From contig CANSOY010000001.1 of the NCBI GenBank assembly GCA_947648765.1, positions 7,016 to 71,015 on the forward strand: 64,000 nt of DNA, given 5' to 3'. Below are positions 23,965 to 43,235 of this stretch, in pieces. Origin of the DNA: an uncultured Clostridium sp. GTDB lineage: Bacteria > Bacillota > Clostridia > TANB77 > CAG-508. The translations under genes were made by a program, and so were the position numbers. The notes beneath the pieces were generated by a model that saw only the letters and a list, made by a program, of their open reading frames with translations, did no database searches and was not told the DNA's origin. Each line of letters starts with the position of its first letter. Positions within the stretch are counted from its first letter, which is position 1.

Positions 23965-25383
23965 TTATTGTTTTATTTTTTTCGCAAGTTTAATCGAAAT
24001 TCCGCCAATTCCTAGGCTTAGAATACCGATAGTTGCAATCCACACATATGGTATCCATTTTTTTGGTTGCTGCTCTGTGTTTTCACTTCCAAATGGTGGC
24101 AAAATAGTTACTGGCAAGGCAGTTGCAGTCAATCGATAAGTTGCAGTCGAAGAAGAACCAACATCAAAAACTAAATCACAAGTTGCACTATTTTCATATA
24201 CTGCATCATCTAACTGTTCTGGTGTAATGACTGTACTAAGTACTAATTTCACAGTATTTCCATCATTATTGGTAACCACATCTTCTCCTTCTTGACGCCA
24301 TCCATAAAAAGCATTTGTTTTCGTTGGTTCTGTTAGTAACTTATGACTTTGCGAAAAGGATAGTTGTTCGTCCTTATGATCCTGAATCCTACAACTAATA
24401 ATATCGCCTGAGCCATAATAGGCATAACGAGAACCTGCCATTTCATATTCAATCTCTAGCAAGGCTCCATGAATAAATTCTTCGTCTACAGTTATAACAA
24501 TTCCTTCTGAGCTAAAAATTGTATTGAGCCCACTTCCAATTGGTGTTAATGTAGATGTCCTTACACCAAATTGTTTAATATAGTCTAGGACATAGCCCAA
24601 TAACTGTGCTTCTACTTGCCCCAAGCTACTAACAGTTGTTGTAACCATTTCGTAAATTCCAGTTGTTAGTTTATCCATATTCGTATTGCTAGATGGGCTT
24701 ACATTTGACAAGATACCATACATAGCAATCATATTATCACTAAGGTCTCTTAATACCACATTGGCATCCATACATACTTGCTCATCTTGTAATCCATCTG
24801 TGATTAACACAATCTGTTGTGCTAAATCATTGTTTCGCCCTCCAGAACTATTTTCGGTCATAATGTTCAATGTAATATCTAACGCATCTTTTAGACTTTG
24901 GTCTTGGCTCGTATTTAGATTAGCAATCTCGTTTCTAATTTGTGTTTTCCCAGTTTTCAACACATTTGTTGTACTCCCTGCTCCAGTTGATGGAATATCT
25001 TTGAATGGGATAATTCCAATTCGAATTTTGTTGGATAATGCACTTCCATCAGCAGGATTTCCATAAAACGCATATAGTTGCTCTAGGAAAGAATTTATTC
25101 CATATTTAATAGTTTCCACAGCAGTTGCATCTTCTGCTTTTACTAAAAAGATCAAATTGAGGTCCTTGAAATTGTTAGCACCCACATTTGGTTGGGATTG
25201 GAGTGTTCCTGTTTCGATTAGCATATTGCTAAAAACCGTTCCATCTGCTAGTGTTAATCGGACAGCACGAATATCTTTTGTAAAATTAGCCGTATTGCAA
25301 ACTGCATTTGTTTTACTTGGTAATAGGAAGATTAAACTTGACAAAATAATTAACATACAAGTCCATATTTTTATCTTTTTCAT
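23965..25383 (-). CDS. surface protein with von Willebrand factor A-like domain, N-terminal signal peptide and C-terminal TM anchor
   Basis: Signal peptide. MIDAS-like IVLITDGLQDEQ. C-terminal hydrophobic helix followed by KKIKQ. Confidence 0.45.
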   Translation of the reverse strand: MKKIKIWTCMLIILSSLIFLLPSKTNAVCNTANFTKDIRAVRLTLADGTVFSNMLIETGTLQSQPNVGANNFKDLNLIFLVKAEDATAVETIKYGINSFLEQLYAFYGNPADGSALSNKIRIGIIPFKDIPSTGAGSTTNVLKTGKTQIRNEIANLNTSQDQSLKDALDITLNIMTENSSGGRNNDLAQQIVLITDGLQDEQVCMDANVVLRDLSDNMIAMYGILSNVSPSSNTNMDKLTTGIYEMVTTTVSSLGQVEAQLLGYVLDYIKQFGVRTSTLTPIGSGLNTIFSSEGIVITVDEEFIHGALLEIEYEMAGSRYAYYGSGDIISCRIQDHKDEQLSFSQSHKLLTEPTKTNAFYGWRQEGEDVVTNNDGNTVKLVLSTVITPEQLDDAVYENSATCDLVFDVGSSSTATYRLTATALPVTILPPFGSENTEQQPKKWIPYVWIATIGILSLGIGGISIKLAKKIKQ

Positions 25384-25398
25384 AACTTCTCCACTTCT

Positions 25399-26865
25399 TT
25401 ATCCTTGGTTTGCGATTAAAACACAACGGAAACTATACGAACCAAAAGAATGTCCACTATGGTTTGTAAAATCAAATAGTCCCGTATATTTTCCCCTGCT
25501 ATAATCTCCGCTTCTCAAGAAAAACCCTGCACTGTCTCGAATATAAATCGAGGTTTCTCCAAACCAAGAAGTATAACCGTTTCCTTTTTTGGATGTTTCA
25601 GCAATCGCATCTCCATATCGATTTTGATTAGCATCATAGTTTTGGTTTAAGGCTCCTGCATCCTCGCTGGATGCTTTGTAAACTGTACAATACTTGTTAC
25701 TTCCTGGTTTTTTCAAAATCGAAGAAGCATAGTTCTTCGCCTTTTCGTCCGTTTTTTCTAAATACCCTGCTGTATACTCGCTTGAGCCTCCATTCATATC
25801 ATAGATACCATATAGATTGCCCGTTGTACTGGCTAATTGTCCTTCTTTGGTGTACCACGCATAGGATTTATCCGCATAGTTATCTTGTAGCGCCTCTTGG
25901 ATTTCTTCTACATGGTTAGTCGTTGCAATTACAGTATTTCCCGCATATCCGGTAACCGTTTCTGCTCCTGCTACTGCTTTGGATACTTCTAAATTATTGA
26001 TAGATACTTTCGTTCCATTTCTTCCATATTGGCTATGAGCTAAATAAGCACAAGCCCCCCATTCACTATTCTTCATTAAATGGCTATCCGCTGCTCTATT
26101 CAATCCATACGGGTTTCCATCTTGTGGTAAAGCTTTTGCTAGGTTGTAAATTTCTCCAACAGAAATGTTGTTATAAGAATAGTTTTTTCCTAAAAATACT
26201 GGATAGGTGATTTTGGTGTCTTCTTTTTGGATTTTTCCAAATACATTCTTGCCATCTCTCTCATAGGTTAGATTAGTGTCTACGACTGGGATATTTTCGG
26301 ATGCTGTATTTTTTTGTCCTGCAAAGCCTGCTTCAAATTTAGAAACCCAAATACCTGTAATTTCCTTATCCCATTCGCCATTTGCAAATTGGTTTTCCGT
26401 TCCATCTTGGAAGGCTGGATGTACAATATATCCTAGTTTAGTAACATCTTTCCCTTCTTTATTATAATTCGTCATTCCTTGTAAAAATACAACCTCTATC
26501 TTTCCGGTTTGCTCTTCTCTATCCCATTGAATTTTGTATGCAAACCTTGGTATCCATACCCACATACTACCATCTTGTGTCATAGCATTTGCCCATCTAC
26601 TCGTTCCACCTGCTTCTGTTGCTTCTATTTGACGTATATATTCATACCAAGTTCCTTCTTTTTGTTCTTCTTGTCCTAATACCTTTGGTGTTTCGTTTCC
26701 TTCCTCAAAGGTAATAGCTTTCATTCCTTCTAACAAAACTGGTGGATTTTGGTTTTGGTCTGTTTTGGTTGGTTCGTCCTTCTTTGCAGTCATTACGCCA
26801 AAGGTAATTGCACTAATTCCAATGATAACTAAAATTCCGACAATTATTCCTATTTTTTGTTTCAT
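25399..26865 (-). CDS. membrane-anchored protein with formylglycine-generating-enzyme (FGE/SUMF1)-like domain
   Basis: N-terminal TM. Motifs YGIYDMNGG (compare YGLYDMxGNVWEW) and C-terminal FRCVL (compare GFRCV). Confidence 0.4.
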   Translation of the reverse strand: MKQKIGIIVGILVIIGISAITFGVMTAKKDEPTKTDQNQNPPVLLEGMKAITFEEGNETPKVLGQEEQKEGTWYEYIRQIEATEAGGTSRWANAMTQDGSMWVWIPRFAYKIQWDREEQTGKIEVVFLQGMTNYNKEGKDVTKLGYIVHPAFQDGTENQFANGEWDKEITGIWVSKFEAGFAGQKNTASENIPVVDTNLTYERDGKNVFGKIQKEDTKITYPVFLGKNYSYNNISVGEIYNLAKALPQDGNPYGLNRAADSHLMKNSEWGACAYLAHSQYGRNGTKVSINNLEVSKAVAGAETVTGYAGNTVIATTNHVEEIQEALQDNYADKSYAWYTKEGQLASTTGNLYGIYDMNGGSSEYTAGYLEKTDEKAKNYASSILKKPGSNKYCTVYKASSEDAGALNQNYDANQNRYGDAIAETSKKGNGYTSWFGETSIYIRDSAGFFLRSGDYSRGKYTGLFDFTNHSGHSFGSYSFRCVLIANQG

Positions 26866-26957
26866 TTGTTTTCTCCTCTTTTATCTACTATCTTCATTAT
26901 ATCTTACCACTAGATATTGTCAATCTTTAATTCACTTTTCTCCTTACTTTTTTGCAG

Positions 26958-26986
26958 TTGAACTTTACATAATTTTATGATATAAT
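26958..26986 (+). promoter_or_regulatory. sigma-A promoter (TTGAAC-17-TATAAT); 9-bp perfect IR (27030-27054) lies in its 5' UTR
   Basis: Hexamers with 17-nt spacing. The inverted repeat is acttagtga/tcactaagt. Confidence 0.35.
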
Positions 26987-27650: not shown

Positions 27651-27690
27651 AAAACACCAGTGATTTCTCACTGGTGTTTTTGTCTTTATT
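27651..27690 (+). terminator. rho-independent terminator
   Basis: aaaacaccagtga/tcactggtgtttt followed by a T-run. Confidence 0.5.
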
Positions 27691-29029
27691 TATTGAACGA
27701 ATATTCAAATTCTGTTCCTTCTCCCAATGTCATAGAAAATGTCTTTGTTACCGAATAAGTCGCATTTGGTTGATTTGCATTCTTAATGTTGACTTGATAA
27801 CGATAAACATAGTCATAAGTTTGGAAATCACTGACGCCAATTAAGTTCTTGGTAAAAAAGTTTGTTTTAATATATTCTTCAAAACTTGCTTGTGTTGGGA
27901 AATTACTGTTACGGTAACTTGCATTTAATTTCTGGTAAGCATAGCGGTAGTCTCCATCATTGATAGCAGAAAAGATTTTGGTTAAATTTAATTGCATTTT
28001 TCCTGCGGTATCTGCTTTGTTATATTGCTCTATAAACTCTGGTATATCTACTGTATAAGTGTCTAATAGAACGGTATAGTTCATCGGCGATACTGCTCGA
28101 ATAATATAGTAATTTTCATAATCGTCAATAAAGGTATATTGTGTGTATTCCTTTCTTTCGTCTACACGATACTGCTTCATTCCCTTTTTTTGATATTGGT
28201 TGATATAGTTTAAGTATTCTTCTTCAGACGCAAATTCCGAAATATCTTTGATGGCTTCTGGCAACATAGAAGCAAATTCGGTTTGCATTCTTGCTACATA
28301 TTGCCCATAACTAGAAGCATTTGGGTATTTTGCTTTTTGGTATTCTGCATCAAGTTTTGTGTAAGCATAATTTGGATAGTATGTGTTTTCGCGGATCCAA
28401 GTATCAAAATAACGGGTTATGATTTCTTCCTCGGTTGCTTTTACTTGTGTATATTTGTTGAATTTCTTTTGCTCGAGTTTGATTGGCGCTAATTCGTTTT
28501 TCTCTGTTTTGTAGTTCTCATAGGCTGTTTTTGAAATTGGCTCGATTGCAAAAGTAGCGGTTTCGCCATCTACATAAACAATGGCATAACATTCTTTTCC
28601 TTGGTGGTTATCTGGTTCAATGATACCATAAACAAGATAAATTGGGCTTGTAATATCGTCTTTGTAGTAGATTTCTCTTGCACGAAATGTAGTTCCCTCT
28701 CCACTATCTACTTTTGCAATGGTAATTGCATTGGAATTGGTAACTCGTTTTGCTGTTTTATAGTGCTCTGTTAAAATGTTATATACCGCTTCTTCATTGC
28801 CCATTCTAAGGTATAGATAGTAATTGGACATCATTTTCTCGATGGAAAAAAACTCTTCATAACCGCGAACTGGTATGATTTTTTCTTCTACCTCTAGTGT
28901 AATATTATCGTCTAGGTTTTCAGCATATTCTTTGGCCTTTTTCTCTTGATTTAAGCGGATGATAAGAATTCCAGCTAGAATTATTAAAAGTATGATGATA
29001 AGAATAATGATAACTTTTACTTTTTTCAA
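27686..29029 (-). CDS. hypothetical bitopic membrane protein (T4SS-like cluster)
   Basis: N-terminal TM followed by a Y/N-rich extracytoplasmic domain. Confidence 0.4.
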   Translation of the reverse strand: MKKVKVIIILIIILLIILAGILIIRLNQEKKAKEYAENLDDNITLEVEEKIIPVRGYEEFFSIEKMMSNYYLYLRMGNEEAVYNILTEHYKTAKRVTNSNAITIAKVDSGEGTTFRAREIYYKDDITSPIYLVYGIIEPDNHQGKECYAIVYVDGETATFAIEPISKTAYENYKTEKNELAPIKLEQKKFNKYTQVKATEEEIITRYFDTWIRENTYYPNYAYTKLDAEYQKAKYPNASSYGQYVARMQTEFASMLPEAIKDISEFASEEEYLNYINQYQKKGMKQYRVDERKEYTQYTFIDDYENYYIIRAVSPMNYTVLLDTYTVDIPEFIEQYNKADTAGKMQLNLTKIFSAINDGDYRYAYQKLNASYRNSNFPTQASFEEYIKTNFFTKNLIGVSDFQTYDYVYRYQVNIKNANQPNATYSVTKTFSMTLGEGTEFEYSFNK

Positions 29030-29047
29030 AACATCGTACTCCTTTCC

Positions 29048-32000
29048 TTATTTTAGTCCATTTACTAAGTGATAACAGTTGACAGAGGTAAATACATCTG
29101 TAATAGATAGCCAGCCGGATTGCCCATTATTAAGCGAACCTTTTGTTGTGTTCATGTTATAAATTTGGGTTCCGTCTTCGTTAATATCTACAATCGGCAT
29201 CCAATGCTGATCTCTTGTATAACGGCTTGTTCCGCCTCTTCCGGAGCCCTGTACATGGACAATAACTTCTCCACCATTTCTTAAATGATTTCGAATTTCT
29301 GTTAACTGGCTAGCAGATAACTGGGTTGCAACACCCCCTGGACATCCAGAACCAAGCGCTCTTGTGGTTAGATTGAACTCATAAATGGTTCTTCCCCAGC
29401 CTGGTAGTCTTGTACTTCCATATCCACTTGCAATGGTGCTGGTTGTTGTGCAGAAACATCCTGCATTTGCCATTGTGCTTCCGCCTCCTGATGTTTCATT
29501 TACCCATGGTCCATAGTTTTGTAGGTACCAAGTATAGGTTTTTCCATTGGAACTGGTATAAGTTTGGAATTCATAACCAGAAATGGATGTTGAACCAACC
29601 GTTCCTCCAGATCTTTCTTCATAAGTAAAGATTTCTTGCTCATTGGCAGCTGTTCTAGTGATTGGTTTATTTGGTGCATAATCAAACATCGCAAGTTGTG
29701 CTGCTGTGTAGTAAATATATTTTGTTCTAGCAAATAATTCTCCTGCTGGTGATTGACTATAATCATAAATTCCTTTTACATAAGTTTCAAAAGTAGCATC
29801 TCGTGAAGGAATATGACCTGGTGCGCCACCACCTAATTTGCACCACCAGTTATCCCAAATATATCGGTTGTGCTCCCATGAGTTAATCTCATAAAGACCT
29901 GCGCCTGCTTCATATACTTGTTTGAAGGTTTTGCCATCTCTCGTTGGCAAGTGTCCAAAATTATAGGCAATCGCAGTTAATGCCCATTTTTGTTGCATGG
30001 ATAGTTGAAGTCCTGCTGTATCGGTATTTACTTTGTTTAGGTATACAGATTGTAGTTCTTCTCCAATTTTATCCACTAATTCTTTTTCAATGTAAATTTG
30101 GTAACTTGCTACTTCTGCATTGGTATATTCTGCTTCATGTCCTCTTGGTAATTTACTACCTACATATTGTTCCACACTGTCGACTGTTTTTTCTTGTCCA
30201 TTTTCTAGTACTTTTCCTTGTTTATTAAACTGACTATGGTGGGATTTCCACTGGATATCTGCATTTCCAATGGTTGGCCATCCAACACCATCGCCATACA
30301 TTAAATAATATTTTCCGTCCGTGGATTGTGGTGCTTCTCCAGAGTGTGCAAATTGTCTTAAATAGCCTGCAAGTCCGCCCATTAGACCACCTGCACTGCT
30401 GAAAGAGTCTGTTCCAAAGATACTTAAATCTAAGGAAGTAACACCATAACTTCTTCCAGTTAAGCGATAAAGAATATATCGCATAACGGTTTCATAGATT
30501 TGAGTTCTTTCACTCGAACCCAGTAGTTTGAATAACAATTCTGCTCCGGTTACTAAATTCTCTTTTGGAGATAATGGAGCACTACTACCTGGTACTTTGT
30601 ATAGGATTAGGTTTCCTTCAACAACACGACCGGCATTTACGCCTCCCACTGGTGTTGTGGTAGTGGTTGCAGTTGTTCCATTTTGCTCTCCTGCATCTGG
30701 CTCTGTTGCTCTTAAGGCAAAGTTAAAGTCTTGGCGACAACGGTTTGACGAAGTAGCGCCTGCCTCTTGGATGGCTTCTGTATAGCCACAGTTATAGTAG
30801 AGTCCGCCCCCTGCATAAATCTGGATATGCCCGTATTGATGTCCTTCATTATCGTTCATAATGATTAAATCGCCTGGTTGGATGGCATCAAAATTCGTAA
30901 TTACCTCCCAACCTGCCGGTGGGCTATTCACAAAGAAACTAACGGTTTTCTGGTGTCCACTAAAGGTCGCCTTATATCCTGCTTCATAAAGAACCCAAGA
31001 AACATATCCGCTACAATCAATGGTTCCATTGGAGCCAGATACTGGCACATTACCAGTTGCTCCATAAGTATATCCATTACTTGCAACATATTGCTTACAT
31101 TCTGCTGCCTTTTCTAAAATGGTTCGTGCAAAACCAGTTACTTGGCTAATATCTATCTCTTGTGCTGGTTGTGAACCTGCTGTTGCACCTGGCAATTCGC
31201 CTGTATTGCTAACAATAAAGCCAAGGAAGGCATCGGTATTATCGCGCAAACTAGTAGTTCCTGCTTGCCATGTTTGGTATCGGGTCGTGGTTGTAACCGT
31301 TCTTTTATTTTCGGTTAAATCTACCTTTTCATAGGTATAGGTTGTTACATTTTGCGTCGTTGTGGTGTTTGTCGTGGTATTGGTTACTGGTACTTGATTG
31401 GTTTCTGTATTGATTAAACGATATTGTCCCATTTGGTCTGGCTCGTTGGTTACGACTGGGTCTGGTGTCTGTGTTTTATCCGTAAAGATTGGCTCTACTG
31501 TTTTTTCAACAAACAAGGTTCTCGCCTCTGTTACAATCGGTGTAATCGCAGTAAAGTAGCTTACTTCTGTTACAGGGTCTTCATTGTAATCTGTTGTCGT
31601 TACGACTGGGTCTGTTGTTACACTTCCGGTTTTGGTATAGGTACTAACCGTTCTTTTTCCAGATAGTTGTGTCGTGGTAGTCGTTGTGGTTAAGGACTCT
31701 AAAATGGTAATTTCAATGGTGGTATTTTTCGTATAATCCGCTAGTGCATTCACGAATTCTGGGCTTTGTGTAATTAAGCATAAAGCCACAAAGAACTCAA
31801 ATGGTGTCGAATATGGAGATACCATCATCATATAGTTGAATGGATATTCTTCTAACGTATTGGTACCATCGGAAGCAATATTGGATTTTGCAATGATAAA
31901 ATTATCTCCATCCATTGCGAAATAGTTTCGTGCTGCTGAATTTTGATTCGCAATCATACTTCTAAGATTGTCTAGTTCAGTATAGGTTAATTGATTCGAG

Positions 32001-32161: not shown

Positions 32162-32444
32162 TCTTTTTTGAATTTGCTCCTTAAAATCATCTGGAATGAC
32201 AATATTTTTATCTTGTACTTGTACAACATCTTTTAGGCTTTTGGCTACTTCCCCTAATTTCTTAAATGCACCATCAATAACGCCCCAAAAAAGTGCAGCA
32301 ATAAAAATAAAGATAAGAAGAGTGATAATTCCAATTTTTGCATATTTTTTTCCGAACTTTTTTTATAAAATTTCCAACGGCTTTTCCAATATTTTTGATA
32401 CCATCTAGCCATTTTTGGTCATCATTCATTGCTCCACTCCTTTT

Positions 32445-36247: not shown

Positions 36248-38263
36248 TTAAATTCCTTCTTTTTTCTTTCTCATTTGCATTAGTTTATTTAAGTTTGTTT
36301 CCACAAATTCAAACTCTTTGGCGGTTGGTCGGATTTCAATAATGGCTGTGTCTGCTCCAACTTTTAGCAAGCCTTCTCCTTTTAAGCAAGTTACTAAGAA
36401 GCCTGCCTCTCCTTCACTTAGTTTGAATACTTCTTTGAGATATTGAATTTCCGCTTTATCTTGTGCTAGGAATAATTTTGTGTCGGATGAAGTTAATACC
36501 GCTTGTGCTTCTGGTTTCTCATAGAAGTCTTGAAATCTTTGGGAAATGATGGCTAGGGAAACATTTCTCTTTCTGGCACGACGTGCCATTGTGTTTAAGA
36601 AATCTACTGCTTCTGGATAAGGAAGGAGCATCCATGCCTCGTCGACAAGTACTCTTTTCTTAGCTGCTTTACGTTTATCTTCACTATTTTTCTTTACATA
36701 TTTCTCCCAAATCCAAGCTAGCAGAATTTGCTGTGCAAGTGGTCTTGCAAATCTTTCCTCTAGTTGAGAAATATCTAGGTTAATAAACAAGGTTCCGTCT
36801 AATAAATCGAAGGTAGATTGTCCATCAAAGTATGCCATTTGTCCTTCATATTCACGGATGTATTGTTTCATAACTTTTAGTAAATAACTATAATGGAATT
36901 TATAGTCTGAGTTATCATTTGCCATTGCTTTTGCTTGAATTCTCTTATACCAAGAACCGATGGTAGGCATTTGTTTTTTGGTTCTACCAAGTAAGTTGCC
37001 AGACATCATATCTTTGGTGGACTCAAATAGGCTGTTTGGGTCTGCTGTAATGCCAAGTGCTGCATATTCTTCGCCAACTGCTTCTGCAATAATTTGCTTG
37101 GTAAGTTCGTTTACATCTTGGCTTCTGGTACTACCTCTTGCCATGGTTAATAGGGCTTGAGTAACATCCTCAATTTTATTTTCTACATTAAGTACTAATC
37201 TTTCTTTTCCGGTAATTTCGTCCTTGGTAACCTCTGTTTCGATATCGAATATGTTGATAACAGTTTTTGATGTTGGGGAAAGAACCACGTTAATTCCACC
37301 CAAACTCTCTGCCACGATACGGTACTCACCTTCTGCGTCAAGTGCTAGACTTTGAATGCCCATTAGTACAGCAGAGCGTGAAATTAAGGTTTTCATGGTT
37401 ACAGACTTACCAGCACCAGATTTTGCGAAAATTACCATGTTGTAGTTGGTAAGTGAGGAATGGAAGTTATCAAATAAAATTGGTACTCCCGTTTGTTTAT
37501 TAAATCCAAGTGGGATACCAGTTGGATGTCCTACCTCAGAAGTCGTAAACGGAAATACGGTTCCCATCGAATTACGGTCAAATGTATGTGTTTTGTGGAT
37601 TTTGTCATCCATCAATGGTAGATTGGACTTGAAAGCGTCTTCTTGCATACCCCATGCTGTTTTTACGCCTACCAATGATTTCGACATTTCCGTTGCAAGT
37701 AGTTTGGTATAACGGTCTAAATCCTCTAAGTTATACGCAAACAAGGTGGCTACTACGGATGCGTCATACAACTTATTGAAACCTGCTGCAATTTCATCTC
37801 TTAGTTGCTCTGCTTCTAATCTTTTTTGCGTAATGGTACTCTCACGGTTAATGTTTCCTCGGTCTGCTGCCACAATTCTTTCCGTTTCAAGTTCGTTAAT
37901 GACACGGTTTAATTCGTTTTGCGATTTCGACTCTTGAATTGGGTTAATGTAAATGGAGGTGTTAATATCTCCAAATAGGTACATATCTCGAAATAGTTCT
38001 GGGAATGTACACATTCTAGGAAGTGCAGATACAAAGAAACTTCTTGCATAACGTGTTACATTGGATATAATCTCTAAGTGGTCAATGTTACTTGCATCAA
38101 TTCCAGATGGTGCAATGAGTTCTTTGATGGTTTTCTTTTTCAAAATCTTGTACTCATCTGGCTTTGTGTAGTCACTATACGGTCTTCTTTCTTCTACCTC
38201 TTTTTGTTTTTTGGCCATCTGGTGTTTCTCCTCCTTTTTCTTGATTTTGCTTTTGTTTATCAA
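36248..38263 (-). CDS. VirB4/TraC-family conjugal-transfer-type ATPase (likely true start ~38218, MAKKQ)
   Basis: Walker A AKSGAGKS and Walker B VLVDEAWML. 650-670 aa. Confidence 0.7.
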   Translation of the reverse strand: MINKSKIKKKEEKHQMAKKQKEVEERRPYSDYTKPDEYKILKKKTIKELIAPSGIDASNIDHLEIISNVTRYARSFFVSALPRMCTFPELFRDMYLFGDINTSIYINPIQESKSQNELNRVINELETERIVAADRGNINRESTITQKRLEAEQLRDEIAAGFNKLYDASVVATLFAYNLEDLDRYTKLLATEMSKSLVGVKTAWGMQEDAFKSNLPLMDDKIHKTHTFDRNSMGTVFPFTTSEVGHPTGIPLGFNKQTGVPILFDNFHSSLTNYNMVIFAKSGAGKSVTMKTLISRSAVLMGIQSLALDAEGEYRIVAESLGGINVVLSPTSKTVINIFDIETEVTKDEITGKERLVLNVENKIEDVTQALLTMARGSTRSQDVNELTKQIIAEAVGEEYAALGITADPNSLFESTKDMMSGNLLGRTKKQMPTIGSWYKRIQAKAMANDNSDYKFHYSYLLKVMKQYIREYEGQMAYFDGQSTFDLLDGTLFINLDISQLEERFARPLAQQILLAWIWEKYVKKNSEDKRKAAKKRVLVDEAWMLLPYPEAVDFLNTMARRARKRNVSLAIISQRFQDFYEKPEAQAVLTSSDTKLFLAQDKAEIQYLKEVFKLSEGEAGFLVTCLKGEGLLKVGADTAIIEIRPTAKEFEFVETNLNKLMQMRKKKEGI

Positions 38264-39386
38264 TCTTATTTATCGCATCTTTTGCTACATCCGTTCCAAT
38301 CATGGTTGCATTTTCTTCTAAGATAATTTTTGCTAGCTGGTCGATTAAATCGTCTACATTCTCTTGTTTTTCTTCGATTGCTTTTTGCTTTTCGGATTTT
38401 ACTTCTGTAATGAGTTGGTTTGCTTTTTCAAATGCTTTTTCTTCAATTTGCTTATCCAAAATGCGGATTTTCTTGTCGAGTACATCTGGTGCTGTTGAAT
38501 AAAGTTCGTCAAATCCTGCACGAAGTGCTTTATCGATTCCATAAACCTCTGCTTCGTCACGGTTGTATGCTACATAGAGTAGGTCTGCAAGGTCGTCCGA
38601 ATTCAATACCTTAGCATTCACACCACAAGCTGCAATCGTACGAATAATGGATTGTGCTCTCGTATATAACTCGGAGAAAGATAAATTACGAATTTCCTCT
38701 TTATCAAAAGAGTTTTGTCCTAATTCGTCTGCATAGTATGGAATTACAATATAGTATTTTTGGTTTAATACATTTTTGTTCAAACTCATTTTTTCGGTGT
38801 TATAGATAATGTCTTTTCCATACTCATATAGGTTGGTTTGTTTGGTTAGTTCAAATTGTGCCTTCTCCAACTCTTCTTTTGGATAATTGCCTGAATTCAC
38901 CATTTTCGTATATTCGGTTTTGGCTTTTTCCAAATTATTTTCTAATTCTTCAATTTTCGATTTATAGGTCTGAATACTGCTCTCTAGGTTAATCGTTCTG
39001 GTTTGGGTATAGATTTGGATGGGATGACGAAGTGTATTTAAGAATTGTACAAACCCTTCTTCTACCGCATTTTTTTCTAGTTCAGACATAAGGTCATAGT
39101 TAATTCCTTGACACTCCACTACCATGATATATTTCATTCCATTTTTTACTTCAATCATATTATCCGTAATGGTATCAAATTCCATAAAGTCTTCCACTGG
39201 TTCTTCTGGTACTGCTCGTTTGCTACTTTCTTTTCTCTTGTCTGTGCTTTCTGGTATCGTTGAAGATTTGCTTTCTTTTCCTTTTTTGGATTTGAAATAC
39301 ACTAAGAATAGCACGGCAAACAGCATAACGATTGCAATTACAATGATAAATAAAATCATCGTTAGTGTGTTAATATCATCAATCAT
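38175..39386 (-). CDS. hypothetical bitopic coiled-coil membrane protein (T4SS-like cluster)
   Basis: N-terminal TM, followed by coiled-coil-rich sequence and a basic C-terminal tail. Confidence 0.4.
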   Translation of the reverse strand: MIDDINTLTMILFIIVIAIVMLFAVLFLVYFKSKKGKESKSSTIPESTDKRKESSKRAVPEEPVEDFMEFDTITDNMIEVKNGMKYIMVVECQGINYDLMSELEKNAVEEGFVQFLNTLRHPIQIYTQTRTINLESSIQTYKSKIEELENNLEKAKTEYTKMVNSGNYPKEELEKAQFELTKQTNLYEYGKDIIYNTEKMSLNKNVLNQKYYIVIPYYADELGQNSFDKEEIRNLSFSELYTRAQSIIRTIAACGVNAKVLNSDDLADLLYVAYNRDEAEVYGIDKALRAGFDELYSTAPDVLDKKIRILDKQIEEKAFEKANQLITEVKSEKQKAIEEKQENVDDLIDQLAKIILEENATMIGTDVAKDAINKIDKQKQNQEKGGETPDGQKTKRGRRKKTV

Positions 39387-39723
39387 CTTTTGTATCCTCC
39401 TTTAGGGTATAGACTTTACGTTTTTTCATTTTGAAAAAGAACGCTCTTTTAATAACATCATCGATTGCTTCTCCGCTAGTTTTTTTCGTAAACTCTATGC
39501 TTGTAATCTCTGGTATCTTGAAGGTTCCAATAATAAAACCAAGTAAAGCAAGGACAGCAAAGATTGCTACGCCGACAACGGTTAGTCCAACGGCATTGAA
39601 GAGTGCGAAAAATAGCACACCAATGCCTCCTAGTATTCCGGTATAAATTAAACTTTTGGTAGAAAAGATAAACAAAATTCTACCTTCTCCCTTTACACTT
39701 CTTGGTAAATTGTATGTTCCCAT
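39379..39723 (-). CDS. small 2-TM protein, VirB3/PrgI-like
   Basis: 114 aa with two adjacent TM helices. Lies near the VirB4-like gene. Confidence 0.4.
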   Translation of the reverse strand: MGTYNLPRSVKGEGRILFIFSTKSLIYTGILGGIGVLFFALFNAVGLTVVGVAIFAVLALLGFIIGTFKIPEITSIEFTKKTSGEAIDDVIKRAFFFKMKKRKVYTLKEDTKDD

Positions 39724-39868
39724 ACAGTTTCCTCCTTTGTATACAACTCTACTAATTTATTATATCAAATAAAGTCTAGAATTGTAATAGAAAACAGAAA
39801 AAAAGTGCATTTTCATGCACTTTTTCATATAAATGTTATGGATTTGTAATCTTTTTGTCATACTAATT

Positions 39869-40249
39869 TTAGCCAGCAGTAATTTGACTAGCCATTTTGT
39901 AGATAGCACTTGCGATGTTAACACCTGCGAAGATTAGTACTGCGCCAATGATGTATGGTAACATAACTTTCTTGTATTCTGCTTTTTCAGAAGCACTACC
40001 CATCATGTATTTAATACCTAGTACAACGATAACACCTACTGCTACTAAACTTCCTACTACTTGGATAATACCAATGATTTGTTCACCAATACCTTGTACT
40101 TGTGTACCAGCTCCTGTATCTGGTGCGATTTGGCTTGGGTCATAAGCTAGTGCAACACTTGCTAAAGATGCAACCATTACAACTACTAGTGCGATTGTAC
40201 CAATCATTTTTAAGGTTCTTGTTTTCATATTCAATTTCACCCCTTTCAA
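39869..40249 (-). CDS. VirB2/TrbC-like pilin-type small secreted protein (paralogue A)
   Basis: Signal peptide, then a hydrophobic helix, a charged loop (KYMMGSASEKAEYKK), and a second hydrophobic helix. Confidence 0.45.
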   Translation of the reverse strand: MKGVKLNMKTRTLKMIGTIALVVVMVASLASVALAYDPSQIAPDTGAGTQVQGIGEQIIGIIQVVGSLVAVGVIVVLGIKYMMGSASEKAEYKKVMLPYIIGAVLIFAGVNIASAIYKMASQITAG

Positions 40250-40300: not shown

Positions 40301-40696
40301 CTAACCGAGTGCATTTCCAAGCACTTCTACGACTAATTTCCACATAGTAAATCCACCAAATAAAACGATACAGCCGACTACAAAAGGAATTAGAATTTCT
40401 TTTACATTTGCTTTGTCTTCTGCTCCTCCTGTCATGAACTTGATGCCTAAGTAGGCTGCCATAAGGACTGCCACTACACTTCCGAGTGGAATTAAAACAC
40501 CTAATATTTTATTGGACATTTCCACCACAGATGTTTTACTTAAGGTATCGTCTGCTCCAGGTGCTTGCACTCCTTTGGTAATAAAGGAATCTGCTCCTGA
40601 AATCAAGTCGCTCAAGGCATAGGACTGGCTAGTTGGGATAAGCAAGATAAGCATTACAAGACAAATACAAATTAACATCTTTTTTGCTTTTTTCAT
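40301..40696 (-). CDS. VirB2/TrbC-like pilin-type small secreted protein (paralogue B)
   Basis: Same architecture: LGIKFMTGGAEDKANVKE between two hydrophobic helices. Confidence 0.45.
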   Translation of the reverse strand: MKKAKKMLICICLVMLILLIPTSQSYALSDLISGADSFITKGVQAPGADDTLSKTSVVEMSNKILGVLIPLGSVVAVLMAAYLGIKFMTGGAEDKANVKEILIPFVVGCIVLFGGFTMWKLVVEVLGNALG

Positions 40697-40757
40697 TTCT
40701 TTTCCCTCCTATCCTTTTCATTATACCACAAGTTGTAAAATCTTTCAAGTTTTACCA

Positions 40758-41126
40758 CTAATGTATCGATGTAACAACATCATAAATGACTTTCGGGAAG
40801 ACGGTTCCAGTAAAAACAATGACTGCTCCAATGACATAAGGTATCATACTTTTCTTGTAATCTGCCTTTTCTTGCGCACTTCCTAACATATAGCGAATAC
40901 CCAGTACAATTAAGACAATCACGGCAATAACAGAGCCAATCACTTGTAGAATACCGAGTAATTTTCCTGCCATAACTTGTGCCTCATTTGGCATCGTTGT
41001 TGTAGTTGGTTGTAATGCACCTGGGTCGCTAATTACCCAGCTTGCTTGACATGGAATGGTTGCAATATGAATAATGGCAAACAGTATGACAAAGACAAAA
41101 AGGATTTGACCTATTCTTTTTTTCAT
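40758..41126 (-). CDS. VirB2/TrbC-like pilin-type small secreted protein (paralogue C)
   Basis: Same architecture: LGIRYMLGSAQEKADYKK. About 50% identical to paralogue A in the C-terminal half. Confidence 0.45.
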   Translation of the reverse strand: MKKRIGQILFVFVILFAIIHIATIPCQASWVISDPGALQPTTTTMPNEAQVMAGKLLGILQVIGSVIAVIVLIVLGIRYMLGSAQEKADYKKSMIPYVIGAVIVFTGTVFPKVIYDVVTSIH

Positions 41127-41277: not shown

Positions 41278-42942
41278 TTAGTTCTCTATGACACTGGGTA
41301 AAGAAAAGGCTACTTTTTCCGGCTTGTAGCTGATGGTTGCCTCCAGGCTGGTGGATACATCCCACTTATCTTCTGCTCGGTAACTGGTGTGGGTTTGCAG
41401 TTCTTCAATCTGGTACTGGTTGTTTGCAATCACTTTCGCATAATTGGGATGTCCAGAAATCTGGTCGCCCCTTTCAATCAAGTGAATGCGGTGGTTATCC
41501 TTGTTTTCGTACATTTCCAGATACATATCTCCGCACATACCCATTTGCCAGTTCGCATTTAAGTAGGTTTCCGTCCCAAAGGACTTCAAAATCTCGTACA
41601 GCCTCGGTGCATTTTCAATCCGAAGGACACCGATGTCTGTCCAAATGAACTCATCATCAAAGATGTAAGTTCCAGCTTGGATTTCGCTGTCTGCCAGTCC
41701 TCGTTTGATATACTCGATGGAAATTCGGTGGTAGGCTTTTTCGTTCAGGATTTGCTGTTGACTACATACAATGTAGTAGTTGTCAACTTGCTTTTGACTG
41801 TGTGCCATTACTACGGCTGAGGTATTTACGGTTACTCTTGCCGAAAACTGTTCTGGTATGTGGAGTTGGTGCCAAGTTTCATTGGCTTTTTCGACGTCCT
41901 CTAAGGTCGCCGCTTGTGTTTTTTCTCCATTCCAGAAAGAGATTTCATTGGGGTGATCTTTCCAATTATATGGATTTTTCCGTTCCAGGTTCACCACTCC
42001 GATGTCGTAGGTTTCGCCGTAGGCTACTTCCATAACAAAATTGTAGACGGTATCACCTTCGTTTTCCGCATAATTGGCTGTCATACTCCCAATTTCTTCT
42101 ACGTTCCCGGTAAGCATTGCCATTCCGGTATCATTTTTCAGGGTCATGGTCGTGATACCGCTTCCAGCCGAGTAGGCTTGGACTTGCAACTCACCCATTC
42201 GTGCTTCCACATAAGAAACATATGTAGTGAGCAGGTAGTTGCTCAAAAGTTCCATCAAATGGTCTTTTTGGGTTCCTGTGATTTCTCCCAGAATGGTGTA
42301 AATGGGACTACTGCCATCTGCTTTCCAGAAATACATGCCGGGGGCAATACTATACTGGCTTGCATGGAAGCAATCCTTTTCTTGCACTTCCAAGAGATAC
42401 CACTGTCCGTGCTCTTTGTCAGATGTGCTGTAGACATCAATCTGTCTGGTTTGCGTTTTTCCCAAGCACCGCTCGCCAATATAGGCGGTGGCACCATAGG
42501 TTTCTTCTTCCACGATGGTCATGTGATAGTTGACGACCGCTTCGGTCATGTGGTTCCACCGACCGATTTGTTGCATTTGGCTAACATCGCCGGCGATTTT
42601 CGGGTCGCCCAACGTAGCTCTGGTGTGGTTTGCAAAAAAGATGTCTTCGCTGAGGTCCGTGGTTTCGACGGGGCTCCATGCTTTCGGCTGGGTTTCGGGG
42701 TCTACTACCTCATTCGGGTGACCACTTAAGTTGACGGCTACGAAAATGAGGATCCCGATTAAGAGCAGGGTCAGTAGGATGACCATCACCATGAGGACAA
42801 TTCCTACTACATTTCTCTTTTTCCGGGTGCGCTTGCGAGCGCGGTTTTGCTTTTTCTTTTCCATGTTCATTACCCTTTCTATGTTATGATTTTTGGTTGT
42901 GGTTTCGGGGTATCTTGAAAACTTTGCCTCCTTCCAATACAT
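41278..42942 (-). CDS. hypothetical signal-anchored extracytoplasmic protein, GC-rich gene (probable start at MNMEKKK ~42870)
   Basis: Basic N-terminal tail followed by a TM helix. GC content is well above that of the neighbours. Confidence 0.4.
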   Translation of the reverse strand: MYWKEAKFSRYPETTTKNHNIERVMNMEKKKQNRARKRTRKKRNVVGIVLMVMVILLTLLLIGILIFVAVNLSGHPNEVVDPETQPKAWSPVETTDLSEDIFFANHTRATLGDPKIAGDVSQMQQIGRWNHMTEAVVNYHMTIVEEETYGATAYIGERCLGKTQTRQIDVYSTSDKEHGQWYLLEVQEKDCFHASQYSIAPGMYFWKADGSSPIYTILGEITGTQKDHLMELLSNYLLTTYVSYVEARMGELQVQAYSAGSGITTMTLKNDTGMAMLTGNVEEIGSMTANYAENEGDTVYNFVMEVAYGETYDIGVVNLERKNPYNWKDHPNEISFWNGEKTQAATLEDVEKANETWHQLHIPEQFSARVTVNTSAVVMAHSQKQVDNYYIVCSQQQILNEKAYHRISIEYIKRGLADSEIQAGTYIFDDEFIWTDIGVLRIENAPRLYEILKSFGTETYLNANWQMGMCGDMYLEMYENKDNHRIHLIERGDQISGHPNYAKVIANNQYQIEELQTHTSYRAEDKWDVSTSLEATISYKPEKVAFSLPSVIEN

Positions 42943-42994
42943 TGGATTTTCAAGAATTCAACAATTCTTATCTTTTTTATTATACCACATTATG

Positions 42995-43032
42995 TAAAAT
43001 AAAGAAAGAGAGCCAGTTTTTTCTGGCTCTCT
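42995..43032 (-). terminator. rho-independent terminator after Spo0E-like gene
   Basis: agagagccag/ctggctctct hairpin followed by a T-rich run on the minus strand. Confidence 0.45.
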
Positions 43033-43052
43033 GGTTCTTTCTTCTTCTATTT

Positions 43053-43235
43053 TTACATTGCTTCACGGTAATATTCCGCGATTAGTTCATCCAATTCCAC
43101 ACTTATTTGATAGATTATGCTATAATCTTCTCCTGCTTCTATACTTTCATTCAATTTATCTCTTAATTTACAGATTTCATCATTTAACATACTATCAACT
43201 CCTTCTTTTTCTTTTGTATATCCTAAAGATAACAT
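43053..43235 (-). CDS. Spo0E-like sporulation regulatory protein (aspartyl-phosphate phosphatase family)
   Basis: 60 aa: DEICKLRDKLNESIEAGEDYS..ISVELDELIAEYY matches the Spo0E-like signature. Confidence 0.5.
   Translation of the reverse strand: MLSLGYTKEKEGVDSMLNDEICKLRDKLNESIEAGEDYSIIYQISVELDELIAEYYREAM

What the first reader, a model, noticed from the sequence alone, without database searches (positions are those of the whole stretch)
23965..43235. Self-contained T4SS/conjugation-like membrane apparatus without relaxase, coupling protein or integrase
Fifteen co-directional minus-strand genes encode the mating-pair-formation set of Gram-positive conjugation systems. These are a VirB4-like ATPase (Walker A/B seen), a VirB3-like 2-TM protein, a VirB6-like polytopic protein with Gly-rich linker, and bitopic VirB8-like candidates. 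There is also a 1037-aa CHAP/NlpC-P60 plus C39-like wall hydrolase (CwlT/TcpG/PrgK analogue). Components not normally found in Firmicute systems are also present: three VirB2/TrbC-like pilin paralogues, a vWA surface protein and an FGE-like membrane protein. The block abuts housekeeping genes on both sides, porCDAB ending at 23932 and Spo0E-like/M16/yqeY/rpsU from 43053. Within it I find no second ATPase (VirD4/FtsK-type T4CP), no relaxase-like ORF and no recombinase. Established knowledge: Tn916 orf13-17, ICEBs1 ConB-ConG/CwlT and pCW3 Tcp systems require a T4CP and a relaxase for DNA transfer. Inference: this is either a decayed ICE remnant or, more interestingly, a chromosomally fixed T4SS-derived pilus/adhesion/secretion machine.
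Basis: partly seen in the sequence, partly recalled or inferred. Interest (0 to 1): 0.75.

Follow-up and report, generated by a model that had tools for sequence, protein, structure and literature searches.

The report
Chromosomal conjugation-like pilus machine in Clostridia
A gene cluster resembling the mating machinery of Gram-positive plasmids, but with pilus subunits and without the DNA-handling parts, sits at the same chromosomal spot in hundreds of uncultured small-genome gut Clostridia species. It is therefore an inherited cell-surface machine, and its closest described parallel is the system that ultra-small parasitic bacteria need to grow on their hosts.

Summary
The type IV secretion (T4SS) gene set is real, but the coherent unit is 27686-42942, not 23965-43235. 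On the minus strand it runs:
- a variable lead gene
- three VirB2/TrbC pilins
- PrgI/VirB3
- a TrsD/TraC-like copy of the VirB4 N-domain
- the VirB4 ATPase
- a VirB6-like polytopic protein
- a bitopic NTF2-like protein
- a large wall hydrolase
- a bitopic triple-NTF2 protein
- a terminator

The "FGE-like" and vWA genes form a separate unit with their own promoter and are absent at this position in relatives.

I found no coupling protein (T4CP), relaxase, integrase, tRNA or att-like repeat in the 64-kb window. No second VirB4/VirD4-type ATPase appears within ±10 kb in any of the lineage loci.

The same cluster lies beside the same housekeeping genes (M16-M16-Spo0E) in at least several hundred species-representative genomes of uncultured Clostridia. 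Two of these are closed genomes of 1.57 and 1.70 Mb.

VirB4 is about 84% identical across species, against 59-69% for adjacent housekeeping genes, and it co-diverges with them. This is therefore a vertically inherited, domesticated T4SS and not an ICE remnant.

In this species the VirB6-like gene and the hydrolase each carry a +1 frameshift.

The closest described analogue is the Patescibacteria T4SS. Function is inferred, not shown.

The parts
41278..42942 (-). Variable lead gene: a 554-aa bitopic membrane protein with no family match. Probably an accessory or surface component, not core.
   Evidence: No Pfam or NCBIfam match beyond TM-region noise. A homologue (532 aa) occurs only in the closest relatives (L085-88, L096). 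Other species carry unrelated 117-409 aa genes here. GC is 0.44 against about 0.37 background.
40758..41126 (-). VirB2/TrbC-type pilin paralogue 1 (122 aa): signal peptide followed by a 2-TM hairpin.
   Evidence: Pfam T4SS_pilin 2.7e-9 (37.4 bits, cut-off 26.6) and TrbC 7.1e-8. An orthologue is present in most lineage loci (45-79 by the criterion used).
40301..40696 (-). VirB2/TrbC-type pilin paralogue 2 (131 aa).
   Evidence: Pfam T4SS_pilin 2.4e-6 (27.9 bits, cut-off 26.6) and TrbC 4e-6. It is 32-38% identical to the other two paralogues.
39869..40249 (-). VirB2/TrbC-type pilin paralogue 3 (126 aa).
   Evidence: Pfam TrbC 4.4e-10 (40.1 bits, cut-off 27.9) and T4SS_pilin 8.4e-7.
39799..39826 (-). 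Terminator-like hairpin between the pilin genes and the assembly genes. It may act as an attenuator that lets pilin mRNA exceed machinery mRNA.
   Evidence: 12-bp stem followed by a T-run. The function is inferred.
39379..39723 (-). VirB3/PrgI-like 2-TM protein (114 aa).
   Evidence: PrgI 2.9e-4, below cut-off. 30 of 32 orthologues hit PrgI, best 6.9e-9.
38175..39386 (-). TrsD/TraC-like protein (403 aa): an N-terminal TM segment plus a homologue of the VirB4 N-terminal domain.
   Evidence: NCBIfam VirB4_plasma positions 48-375 at 2.6e-5, and TrsD/TraD 3.1e-3. Orthologues carry PF26593 TraC-like.
36248..38263 (-). VirB4-family ATPase. The ORF is 671 aa. Database copies start at Met16 and give 656 aa.
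   Evidence: with Walker A and B read. Median pairwise identity is 84% among 82 species.
33472..36235 (-). VirB6/TrbL-like polytopic protein. It has a signal peptide, a VirB2-like hairpin, a polytopic core, a Gly/Ser/Ala-rich linker and a C-terminal domain. In this species a +1 frameshift near 35998 splits it into a 101-aa ORF (35930-36235) and an 834-aa ORF (33472-35976).
   Evidence: TrbL_4 4.9e-3 and T4SS_pilin 0.016. NCBIfam MMCAP2_0566 conjugal transfer family 7.5e-7. 19 of 30 orthologues hit T4SS_pilin and 4 of 30 hit TrbL_4. Relatives have a single 912-919 aa gene. The frameshift was read and is shared by L089.
32445..33548 (-). Bitopic protein (likely start at 33443, giving 332 aa): TM segment, NTF2-like domain and a beta-rich domain. 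VirB8/TraM/TcpC-like candidate.
29048..32429 (-). Large wall hydrolase (VirB1/CwlT/TcpG/PrgK analogue): a conserved N-terminal scaffold, NlpC/P60, and a weak C39-like C-terminal domain. The N-terminal 51-codon ORF (32274-32429) is out of frame because of an extra A in the A7 run at 32358-32364.
   Evidence: NlpC_P60 3.7e-7. C39-like region at pairwise E 0.001. The frameshift was read. Orthologues swap catalytic domains.
27686..29029 (-). Bitopic protein (447 aa): a TM segment plus three tandem NTF2-like domains. TcpC/VirB8-like scaffold candidate.
27651..27680 (.). Bidirectional intrinsic terminator marking the end of the T4SS operon.
   Evidence: 13-bp stem with T-runs.
23965..26923 (-). Adjacent but separate two-gene unit that is probably NOT part of the machine. 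It comprises a 488-aa N-anchored protein with no family match (25399-26865) and a 472-aa secreted, C-anchored protein with a weak vWA match (23965-25383). It has its own consensus promoter.
   Evidence: Promoter at 26923-26896, 12 of 12 matches. No family match for the 488-aa protein. VWA_2 scores 24.3 bits, below cut-off. Relatives have other genes after the triple-NTF2 gene. The same arrangement occurs in another sample of this species.

Best explanation
This is a vertically inherited, chromosomally fixed derivative of a Firmicute plasmid/ICE mating-pair-formation module. It has lost, or never kept, the DNA-processing half: coupling protein, relaxase and integrase.

Proposed mechanism:
1. 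Three Sec-exported VirB2-type pilins insert in the membrane as 2-TM hairpins.
2. A VirB4 hexamer is tethered by the VirB3/PrgI-like protein and the TrsD-like N-domain protein. It extracts the pilins and polymerises them on the VirB6-like platform, whose own N-terminus carries a pilin-like hairpin.
3. The two bitopic NTF2-domain proteins form the wall-spanning scaffold.
4. The large hydrolase opens peptidoglycan.
5. The product is a surface pilus or conduit used for contact with other cells, not for relaxase-piloted DNA export.

Shown: gene content, homology, predicted folds, synteny, conservation pattern, and local absence of T4CP, relaxase and integrase.

Inferred: pilus assembly, the role of each part, and the cell-contact function. 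The cargo, if any, is unknown.

In this species the VirB6-like gene is split and the hydrolase has lost its anchor through frameshifts. The machine may therefore be impaired or modified here.
For: Gene set and order.

VirB8-like folds.

Same locus (M16-M16-Spo0E-cluster) in every lineage locus examined.

Conservation across species:
- VirB4 median pairwise identity 84%
- YqeY 69%, M16a 67%, M16b 59%
- VirB4 exceeds M16a in 1272 of 1275 genome pairs

Co-divergence of VirB4 with M16a: rho 0.84.

Extracellular parts evolve fast: pilins 42-48%, VirB6-like 37%, NTF2 proteins 32-34%. The hydrolase swaps catalytic domains. This fits surface exposure and interaction with outside partners.

Exactly one VirB4-family ATPase per locus and no second related ATPase in the window or the 95 loci held at that call. 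No T4CP, relaxase or integrase Pfam in ±10 kb. No tRNA or att repeats.

Mobile ancestors have the same gene order but carry one pilin, with a T4CP, an integrase or a plasmid backbone nearby.

Functional precedent: the Patescibacteria T4SS has a pilin array, TrsD+VirB4, no relaxase, and is chromosomal and essential (PMC10633639; 10.1101/2025.01.22.634366; PMC12857230).

From established knowledge: VirB4 acts as a pilin dislocase/assembly ATPase in Agrobacterium and R388.
Against: - No expression, imaging or genetic data exist.
- The rest of these genomes could not be scanned, so a T4CP and relaxase encoded elsewhere are not excluded.
- The jackhmmer scan for a second ATPase had no positive control.
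- The VirB6 and C39 assignments are sub-threshold.
- NTF2 is a generic fold.
- This species carries frameshifts in two components.
- The top-80 loci were chosen by VirB4 similarity, which inflates VirB4 identity somewhat.
Confidence: 0.55

Rival explanations
1. It is a working conjugation channel whose coupling protein and relaxase are encoded elsewhere in the chromosome or supplied by mobilisable elements. It would act as a resident mating apparatus serving IMEs or chromosomal transfer.
For: T4CP genes are often unlinked from virB4, as stated in 10.1101/2025.01.22.634366. The closest mobile relatives of this module do have a T4CP and an integrase. Only ±10 kb per genome was visible.
Against: A fixed position, vertical co-divergence and a VirB4 more constrained than housekeeping neighbours are unusual for a service provided to mobile DNA. 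No relaxase, T4CP or integrase lies near the cluster in any lineage locus examined. Small 1.6-1.7 Mb genomes rarely retain such a luxury, which is an inference.
Confidence: 0.15
2. It is a DNA-uptake (competence) machine. It would be analogous to the Helicobacter pylori ComB system or the archaeal Ced system, which use VirB4-family ATPases and need neither relaxase nor T4CP.
For: The component list (VirB2, VirB3, VirB4, VirB6, VirB8-like, no T4CP) mirrors ComB, from established knowledge. A reduced genome could profit from imported DNA or nucleotides. There is a weak CedD match at 3.4e-5.
Against: The CedD match is P-loop-level only. In the one tested analogue, Southlakia, T4SS essentiality was independent of ComEC-dependent transformation (PMC12857230). 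The diversifying wall hydrolases are not explained by DNA uptake.
Confidence: 0.1
3. It is a T4CP-independent protein export or attack system, like Bordetella Ptl or antibacterial T4SSs. Its main output would be proteins, for example the polymorphic wall hydrolase, delivered to the milieu or into neighbouring bacteria. The pilins would form only a short channel.
For: T4CP-less protein-secreting T4SSs exist in Ptl and Brucella VirB (10.1101/2025.01.22.634366; PMC12857230). The hydrolase slot carries at least 11 alternative catalytic domain families on a conserved scaffold, a pattern typical of polymorphic effectors and phage lysins.
Against: No recognisable immunity genes or toxin domains were found next to the cluster. 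Multi-domain wall hydrolases are standard self-acting parts of Gram-positive T4SSs such as PrgK, TraG, CwlT and TcpG. Three conserved pilin orthologues suggest a real filament.
Confidence: 0.12
4. It is a decaying ICE remnant with no function.
For: In this species the VirB6-like gene and the hydrolase carry +1 frameshifts, present in two independent assemblies. Another contig has a further frameshift in the hydrolase.
Against: Intact single genes occur in relatives. The locus is the same in every lineage locus examined, and several hundred species representatives hold a close VirB4 relative. VirB4 is 84% identical and more conserved than flanking housekeeping genes.
Confidence: 0.05

Closest known systems
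Patescibacteria (CPR) T4SS, e.g. Southlakia epibionticum SEML1_0006-0019
   Same: - Monoderm host with a small genome.
- Chromosomal and lineage-wide.
- MPF_FATA-like parts: VirB3/PrgI, a TrsD-like VirB4 N-domain protein next to VirB4, VirB6, and peptidase/lysozyme genes.
- An array of divergent VirB2-like pilins.
- No relaxase at the locus.
(PMC10633639; 10.1101/2025.01.22.634366; PMC12857230)
   Different: - The host here is a walled Clostridia lineage with genomes of about 1.6 Mb.
- It has exactly three pilin orthologues fixed across species, rather than variable arrays of 2-11.
- The cluster sits next to M16/Spo0E, not dnaA/dnaN.
- The nearest named VirB4 relatives are Firmicute: C. botulinum plasmid 42%, Heliorestis 36%. 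Membership of the CPR VirB4 clade was not tested.
- Essentiality and any epibiotic role are unknown.
Uncharacterised Firmicute plasmid/ICE transfer module, e.g. Clostridium botulinum plasmid p12/29 NZ_KT897275 and metagenomic contigs L090/L091
   Same: Same gene order: pilin, PrgI-like, TraC/TrsD-like, short VirB4 ('DUF87'), VirB6-like with a pilin-like N-terminus, then an NlpC/P60 or C39 hydrolase. VirB4 is 39-42% identical.
   Different: The mobile versions have one pilin gene. They sit beside a T4CP, a tyrosine recombinase and actin-like partition genes, or on a plasmid. The window's version has three pilins and none of those.
Gram-positive conjugation systems pCW3 Tcp, pIP501 Tra, pCF10 Prg, pGO1 Trs, ICEBs1 Con, and the CTn2 CD1110 family
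   Same: They share a VirB4 ATPase (best NCBIfam model is the CD1110 family), PrgI/VirB3, VirB6-like, bitopic NTF2-fold proteins (TcpC, TraM), a multi-domain wall hydrolase, and TrsD in the pGO1 subclass.
   Different: Those systems require a T4CP and a relaxase, are mobile, and are described as lacking VirB2 pilins (PMC12857230).
Helicobacter pylori ComB, Bordetella Ptl, Brucella VirB
   Same: These T4SSs work without a coupling protein and without a relaxase, and are chromosomally encoded (10.1101/2025.01.22.634366).
   Different: They are diderm systems with VirB7/9/10 outer-membrane cores. Sequence similarity is limited to VirB4-family level.
Mycoplasma ICE transfer proteins (Mbov_0397 VirB4, Mbov_0396/MMCAP2_0566 TM protein)
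   Same: They give the second-best NCBIfam matches for VirB4 (1.8e-52), for the TrsD-like protein (to the N-terminal part of the same model) and for the VirB6-like protein.
   Different: All matches are far below the model cut-offs. Mycoplasma ICEs are mobile, carry a T4CP and a DDE transposase, and have no pilins or wall hydrolase.

Membership tests
Type IV secretion system, monoderm (MPF_FATA-like) mating-pair-formation module | VirB4-family ATPase with intact Walker motifs | tested here: met
   The motifs were read.
Type IV secretion system, monoderm (MPF_FATA-like) mating-pair-formation module | VirB3/PrgI-like small 2-TM protein next to VirB4 | tested here: met
   The window copy is below cut-off at 21.7 bits against 27. 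However, 30 of 32 orthologues match PrgI, best 6.9e-9.
Type IV secretion system, monoderm (MPF_FATA-like) mating-pair-formation module | VirB6/TrbL-like polytopic membrane protein | tested here: inconclusive
   Only sub-threshold matches were found: TrbL_4 4.9e-3, MMCAP2_0566 7.5e-7, pLS20_p028 1.6e-3. Only 4 of 30 orthologues hit TrbL_4. Topology and position fit.
Type IV secretion system, monoderm (MPF_FATA-like) mating-pair-formation module | Bitopic VirB8-like (NTF2-fold) protein(s) | tested here: met
Type IV secretion system, monoderm (MPF_FATA-like) mating-pair-formation module | Dedicated peptidoglycan hydrolase | tested here: met
   NlpC/P60 3.7e-7. Orthologues carry many wall-hydrolase domains.
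Conjugative element (ICE or conjugative plasmid) | Type IV coupling protein (VirD4/TcpA/FtsK-like) | tested here: not met
   None in the 64-kb window. No second VirB4/VirD4-related ATPase in the window or the 95 loci held at that call. No T4CP Pfam in ±10 kb. The rest of the genome could not be tested.
Conjugative element (ICE or conjugative plasmid) | Relaxase | tested here: not met
   No relaxase-like ORF in the window or in the Pfam-annotated flanks of relatives. The rest of the genome could not be tested.
Conjugative element (ICE or conjugative plasmid) | Integrase and att repeats, or a variable insertion site | tested here: not met
   No recombinase, no tRNA, and no bounding repeats. The locus is the same across species.
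Patescibacteria-type non-conjugative T4SS | Array of VirB2-like pilin genes inside the cluster | tested here: met
   Three paralogues, 32-40% identical to each other. They are conserved as three orthologues across species.
Patescibacteria-type non-conjugative T4SS | TrsD-like VirB4 N-domain homologue adjacent to VirB4 | tested here: met
   (VirB4_plasma positions 48-375 at 2.6e-5; TrsD 3.1e-3). Orthologues carry PF26593 TraC-like.
Patescibacteria-type non-conjugative T4SS | VirB4 falls in the monophyletic CPR clade | tested here: inconclusive
   No labelled CPR sequences were available. The next relatives below the lineage are at most 42% identical. Those with names are Firmicutes. Other look-ups returned no organism.
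Patescibacteria-type non-conjugative T4SS | Required for growth on a bacterial host | not testable with these tools
   The organisms are uncultured. Only the strong constraint on VirB4 hints at importance.
ComB-type DNA-uptake T4SS | Functional coupling to ComEC-dependent transformation | not tested
   Only a stand-alone metallo-beta-lactamase-fold ORF at 56459-57154 is in the window. There is no evidence either way.

The most novel reading that the evidence does not exclude
This is the Firmicute counterpart of the Patescibacteria T4SS. It would be a near-essential, pilus-bearing contact or feeding conduit by which a very large, prevalent, still-uncultured order of small-genome gut Clostridia attaches to other bacteria or to host surfaces and exchanges material with them. 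Its polymorphic wall-hydrolase head would be tuned to the partner's cell wall. That would imply a partner-dependent lifestyle and explain why the lineage resists cultivation. It would also show that VirB2 pili are ancestral in a whole subclass of Gram-positive T4SSs.
Probability: 0.15. Interest if true: 0.9.

Novelty: new variant of a known kind. Interest (0 to 1): 0.72.

Why it matters
Current reviews state that VirB2 pilins in monoderm T4SSs, and T4SSs needed for the bearer's own survival, are known only from Patescibacteria (PMC12857230). Here the same design appears in a different phylum: a pilin array, a split TrsD+VirB4, no relaxase, and a chromosomal, lineage-wide cluster. Its ATPase is more conserved than neighbouring housekeeping genes.

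Plasmid and ICE relatives in Clostridium suggest where such systems came from.

The lineage comprises hundreds of uncultured gut species with genomes of about 1.6 Mb. It may be the order TANB77, which has been linked to immunotherapy response, but that identity was not verified here. A conserved surface machine is a concrete handle on the lineage's lifestyle, its cultivation and its interaction with the host immune system.

The finding also gives T4SS biologists a Gram-positive system in which to ask how a VirB2 pilus crosses a thick wall.

Tried and rejected
- Profile searches of the two bitopic proteins against PDB sequences found nothing significant. Fold comparison was needed instead.
- The 'FGE-like' protein had no Pfam, NCBIfam or PDB match, and that label was dropped.
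- Two cluster look-ups aimed at naming the organisms of distant VirB4 relatives, to place the CPR clade, returned almost no organism names.
- I tried to confirm that the lineage is TANB77. The TANB77 paper describes a different, Tad-type pilus cluster, holds no supplement text and does not mention CAG-780. The order-level identity stays a guess.
- Literature searches for this system in Clostridia found nothing.
- The region 26866-27685 was checked as a possible remnant of a lost gene. Its only similarity to relatives is the end of the 447-aa gene. It holds a terminator and a plus-strand ORF instead.
- Horizontal sweep was considered as the cause of the high VirB4 identity and rejected. The other cluster genes are 30-60% identical, and VirB4 divergence tracks that of a flanking housekeeping gene.
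- Assembly error was considered for the frameshifts. It is unlikely, because an independent contig with 35 SNPs shares them.

Full report
WHAT IS IN THE SEQUENCE

The minus strand between 27686 and 42942 carries one tightly packed gene string. In order of transcription:

1. A 554-aa bitopic protein with no family match (41278-42942).
2. Three small proteins at 40758-41126, 40301-40696 and 39869-40249. Each passes the Pfam gathering score of TrbC/VirB2 and/or T4SS_pilin. Each has a signal peptide ending in an A-x-A-like site, followed by two hydrophobic helices (read). They are 32-40% identical to each other.
3. A terminator-like hairpin at 39799-39826.
4. A 114-aa 2-TM PrgI/VirB3-like protein. 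The window copy is below the cut-off, but 30 of 32 orthologues match PrgI.
5. A 403-aa protein with an N-terminal membrane helix. It matches the N-terminal part of a VirB4 model and, weakly, TrsD. Its orthologues carry PF26593 TraC-like.
6. A 671-aa VirB4 ATPase.
7. A VirB6-like polytopic protein.
8. A bitopic 332/367-aa protein.
9. A 1037-aa NlpC/P60 hydrolase.
10. A bitopic 447-aa protein.
11. A strong bidirectional terminator at 27651-27680.

The block does not run on to 23965 as one unit. After the terminator comes a plus-strand 150-aa ORF (27166-27618). The 488-aa gene then has its own perfect -35/-10 promoter.

That 488-aa protein has no Pfam, NCBIfam or PDB match, so the 'FGE-like' label is unsupported. 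The 472-aa protein's vWA match is below threshold.

In other species, the 447-aa gene's orthologue is followed by a highly acidic protein of about 445 aa (48 of 62 loci) and then a D-Ala-D-Ala carboxypeptidase. The window has neither at this position. A second sample of the window's own species shows the window's arrangement.

The lead 554-aa gene also varies. It occurs only in the closest relatives, other species carry unrelated genes there, and its GC is higher than the surroundings.

Two genes are broken in this species:
- The VirB6-like gene is a single 912-919-aa gene in relatives. Here an extra base near 35998 splits it into 101 aa + 834 aa.
- The hydrolase's N-terminal membrane anchor is out of frame because of an extra A in an A7 run at 32358-32364.

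An independent 8.3-kb contig from another sample is 99.57% identical with 35 substitutions. It has the same split ORFs. The frameshifts are therefore real features of this species and not assembly errors.

ARE THE WEAK ASSIGNMENTS SOUND?

For the VirB6-like protein the evidence is sub-threshold but consistent:
- TrbL_4 and three NCBIfam conjugation transmembrane families.
- A 7e-13 pairwise match to the equivalent gene of a Clostridium botulinum plasmid.
- An N-terminal VirB2-like hairpin that 19 of 30 orthologues show.

For the two bitopic proteins I built alignments from database homologues and predicted structures.
- The 447-aa protein models at pLDDT 90.5 as a membrane helix plus three tandem alpha+beta domains.
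- The 332-aa protein models at pLDDT 74.6 as a helix, one such domain and a beta-rich domain.

WHAT IS MISSING

Reading every ORF of the 64-kb window, and running Pfam on the unclear ones, shows ordinary chromosomal genes. These include a two-component system, SMC, MinD/E, RodA, a 2-oxoacid:ferredoxin oxidoreductase, M16 peptidases, YqeY, S21, NrdDG and a P-type ATPase.

There is no coupling protein, relaxase or recombinase. There are no tRNA genes and no direct repeats that could bound an element.

An iterated profile search seeded with VirB4 found exactly one hit per locus in the window and the 95 loci held at that call. No positive control was available for that search.

The gene tables with Pfam hits for two other species show no T4CP, relaxase or integrase within 10 kb on either side.

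RELATIVES

The VirB4 protein has thousands of database relatives, and the best 120 are all at least 86% identical.

The 80 best are 81-90% identical. Nearly all are from MAGs named 'uncultured Clostridia' or 'Clostridium sp.', taken from human, rabbit, mouse and ruminant guts. They include two closed genomes of 1.57 and 1.70 Mb.

In all loci whose flanks are held, the order is the same:
- M16, M16, Spo0E-like
- a variable gene
- three pilins, PrgI, TrsD-like, VirB4, VirB6-like
- NTF2 protein, hydrolase, triple-NTF2 protein

Median pairwise identities among these species:

| Protein | Median identity |
|---|---|
| VirB4 | 84% |
| YqeY | 69% |
| M16a | 67% |
| PrgI-like | 60% |
| M16b | 59% |
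| TrsD-like | 56% |
| Pilins | 42-48% |
| VirB6-like | 37% |
| NTF2 proteins | 32-34% |

VirB4 is more conserved than the adjacent M16 peptidase in 1272 of 1275 genome pairs. VirB4 divergence rises with M16a divergence (Spearman 0.84), at least as tightly as the two M16 genes track each other (0.76).

This is the signature of vertical inheritance with very strong constraint on the motor and fast change in the exposed parts. It is neither a recent sweep of a mobile element nor decay. One caveat applies: the 80 loci were the best by VirB4 similarity.

THE HYDROLASE SLOT

Across 41 species the protein at this position keeps its N-terminal scaffold. Its catalytic domains differ:
- NlpC/P60 (12 species)
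- glucosaminidase (9)
- CHAP (8)
- SleB-like Hydrolase_2 (7)
- two lysozyme families (6 and 5)
- C39-like (5)
- GDSL esterase (4)
- M23 and M15 (2 each)
- amidase (1)

Multi-domain hydrolases are normal in Gram-positive T4SSs. This much turnover beside an almost invariant ATPase suggests that the enzyme meets a variable substrate. That could be another cell's wall, which is inference.

WHERE IT CAME FROM

In the 50%-clustered library the lineage collapses into one full-length representative, P0135, which is 64% identical. The next relatives are at most 42% identical.
- P0135's locus again has three pilins, a PrgI-sized gene, a TrsD-sized gene, VirB4 and a VirB6-like gene. It has no T4CP and sits in a different chromosomal context.
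- The 39% relative lies downstream of a T4CP, a tyrosine recombinase and an actin-like partition gene.
- The 42% relatives are on 134-143-kb Clostridium botulinum plasmids with the same gene order but one pilin-like gene.
- Named relatives at about 35% identity are Heliorestis and Peptostreptococcaceae.

The module therefore belongs to an undescribed Firmicute plasmid/ICE transfer subclass that already had a VirB2-like pilin. This gut lineage holds a domesticated copy with a triplicated pilin.

COMPARISON WITH WHAT IS KNOWN

The best-matching curated VirB4 models are the C. difficile CD1110 family and the Mycoplasma ICE family, both far below cut-off.

In function and design the closest described system is the T4SS of Patescibacteria:
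- It is MPF_FATA-derived.
- It has TrsD next to VirB4, PrgI, VirB6, arrays of divergent VirB2 pilins, and lysozyme/peptidase genes.
- It has no relaxase and is chromosomal.
- In Southlakia epibionticum it is essential for growth on the host.
(PMC10633639; 10.1101/2025.01.22.634366)

A December 2025 review calls these systems unique among monoderms for their pilins and their essentiality (PMC12857230).

I could not test whether the window's VirB4 is related by descent to the CPR clade, because no labelled CPR sequences could be obtained. T4CP-less systems such as ComB, Ptl and Brucella VirB are looser functional parallels.

Searches of the paper library found no description of this Clostridia system. 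A paper on the uncultured order TANB77 describes a conserved Tad-type pilus, which is a different cluster. My suspicion that the present lineage is TANB77 rests on memory of naming conventions and was not confirmed.

MECHANISM AND CONFIDENCE

Most likely (0.55), the cluster builds a VirB2-type pilus or conduit. The pilins are exported by Sec. VirB4 extracts and polymerises them, anchored by the VirB3-like and TrsD-like proteins on the VirB6-like platform. The structure passes through a wall opened by the hydrolase and is scaffolded by the NTF2 proteins. It serves contact with other cells, not relaxase-driven DNA export.

Gene content, folds, synteny and constraint are shown. Assembly, localisation and purpose are inferred.

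Rivals:
- Conjugation with T4CP and relaxase encoded elsewhere (0.15).
- Protein or hydrolase delivery without a true pilus (0.12).
- DNA uptake (0.10).
- Functionless remnant (0.05 for the lineage; more plausible for this species because of the two frameshifts).

VERDICT

The boundaries and several labels needed correcting. The 'chromosomally fixed machine' reading is supported. It is a new variant of a known kind, a Patescibacteria-like, pilin-bearing, relaxase-less monoderm T4SS found in Firmicutes. It is of clear interest to T4SS and gut-microbiome specialists.

Noticed in passing
window 29048-32429 and the orthologous genes in L001-L085: The T4SS-associated wall hydrolase keeps a conserved N-terminal scaffold but carries at least 11 alternative catalytic domain families across 41 species. 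These include NlpC/P60, glucosaminidase, CHAP, Hydrolase_2, two lysozyme families, C39_2, GDSL, M23, M15_4 and Amidase_3. The neighbouring VirB4 meanwhile stays about 84% identical.
   Followed up: partly
window 14584-15601 (-): The tRNA-dihydrouridine synthase gene is split into two overlapping ORFs, 188 aa at 15035-15601 and 167 aa at 14584-15087. This is a third apparent frameshift in this genome, and it lies in a housekeeping gene.
   Followed up: no
window 47153-49292 (+): A 415-aa protein has a prepilin-like N-terminal hydrophobic segment and two internal repeats of about 150 aa, with no Pfam match. It is followed by a 239-aa Cys-rich protein. The pair sits between rpsU/yqeY and nrdG, where the related species L085-L088 have a single 219-227-aa gene.
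   Followed up: partly
window 18276-19184 (-): A 302-aa protein has a pilin-like N-terminal membrane segment and no family match. It lies next to minD.
   Followed up: no
window 27166-27618 (+): A 150-aa Cys-rich ORF with no family match sits on the opposite strand, wedged between the T4SS terminator and the next promoter. It is conserved in a second sample of the species (L097).
   Followed up: partly
loci L005-L084, just downstream of the triple-NTF2 gene (e.g. L019:14117-15421): Most relatives (48 of 62 loci) encode a very acidic, apparently cytoplasmic protein of about 445 aa with no Pfam match as the last co-directional gene of the cluster. The window has no homologue of it. It could be a substrate or a cytoplasmic accessory factor.
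   Followed up: partly
window 33472-36235; L094:13074-15665: The VirB6-like proteins of this family begin with a segment that matches the VirB2/T4SS_pilin model. This holds for 19 of 30 orthologues and also for the C. botulinum plasmid homologue. It looks like a pilin-like hairpin fused to the platform protein.
   Followed up: partly
window 41278-42942: The lead gene of the cluster has a GC content of about 0.44, against about 0.37 for the surroundings. It exists only in the closest relatives, which suggests recent acquisition at the head of the operon.
   Followed up: no
L092 (contig ERZ6864144 c_000002871707): A VirB4 41% identical to the window's lies directly downstream of dnaN, with a single pilin gene. 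A dnaA/dnaN context is reported as typical of Patescibacteria T4SS loci. The organism could not be identified.
   Followed up: no
window 19318-20397 (-): A YhcG/DUF1016 PDDEXK nuclease gene lies between the min/rod cell-division genes and the por operon.
   Followed up: no
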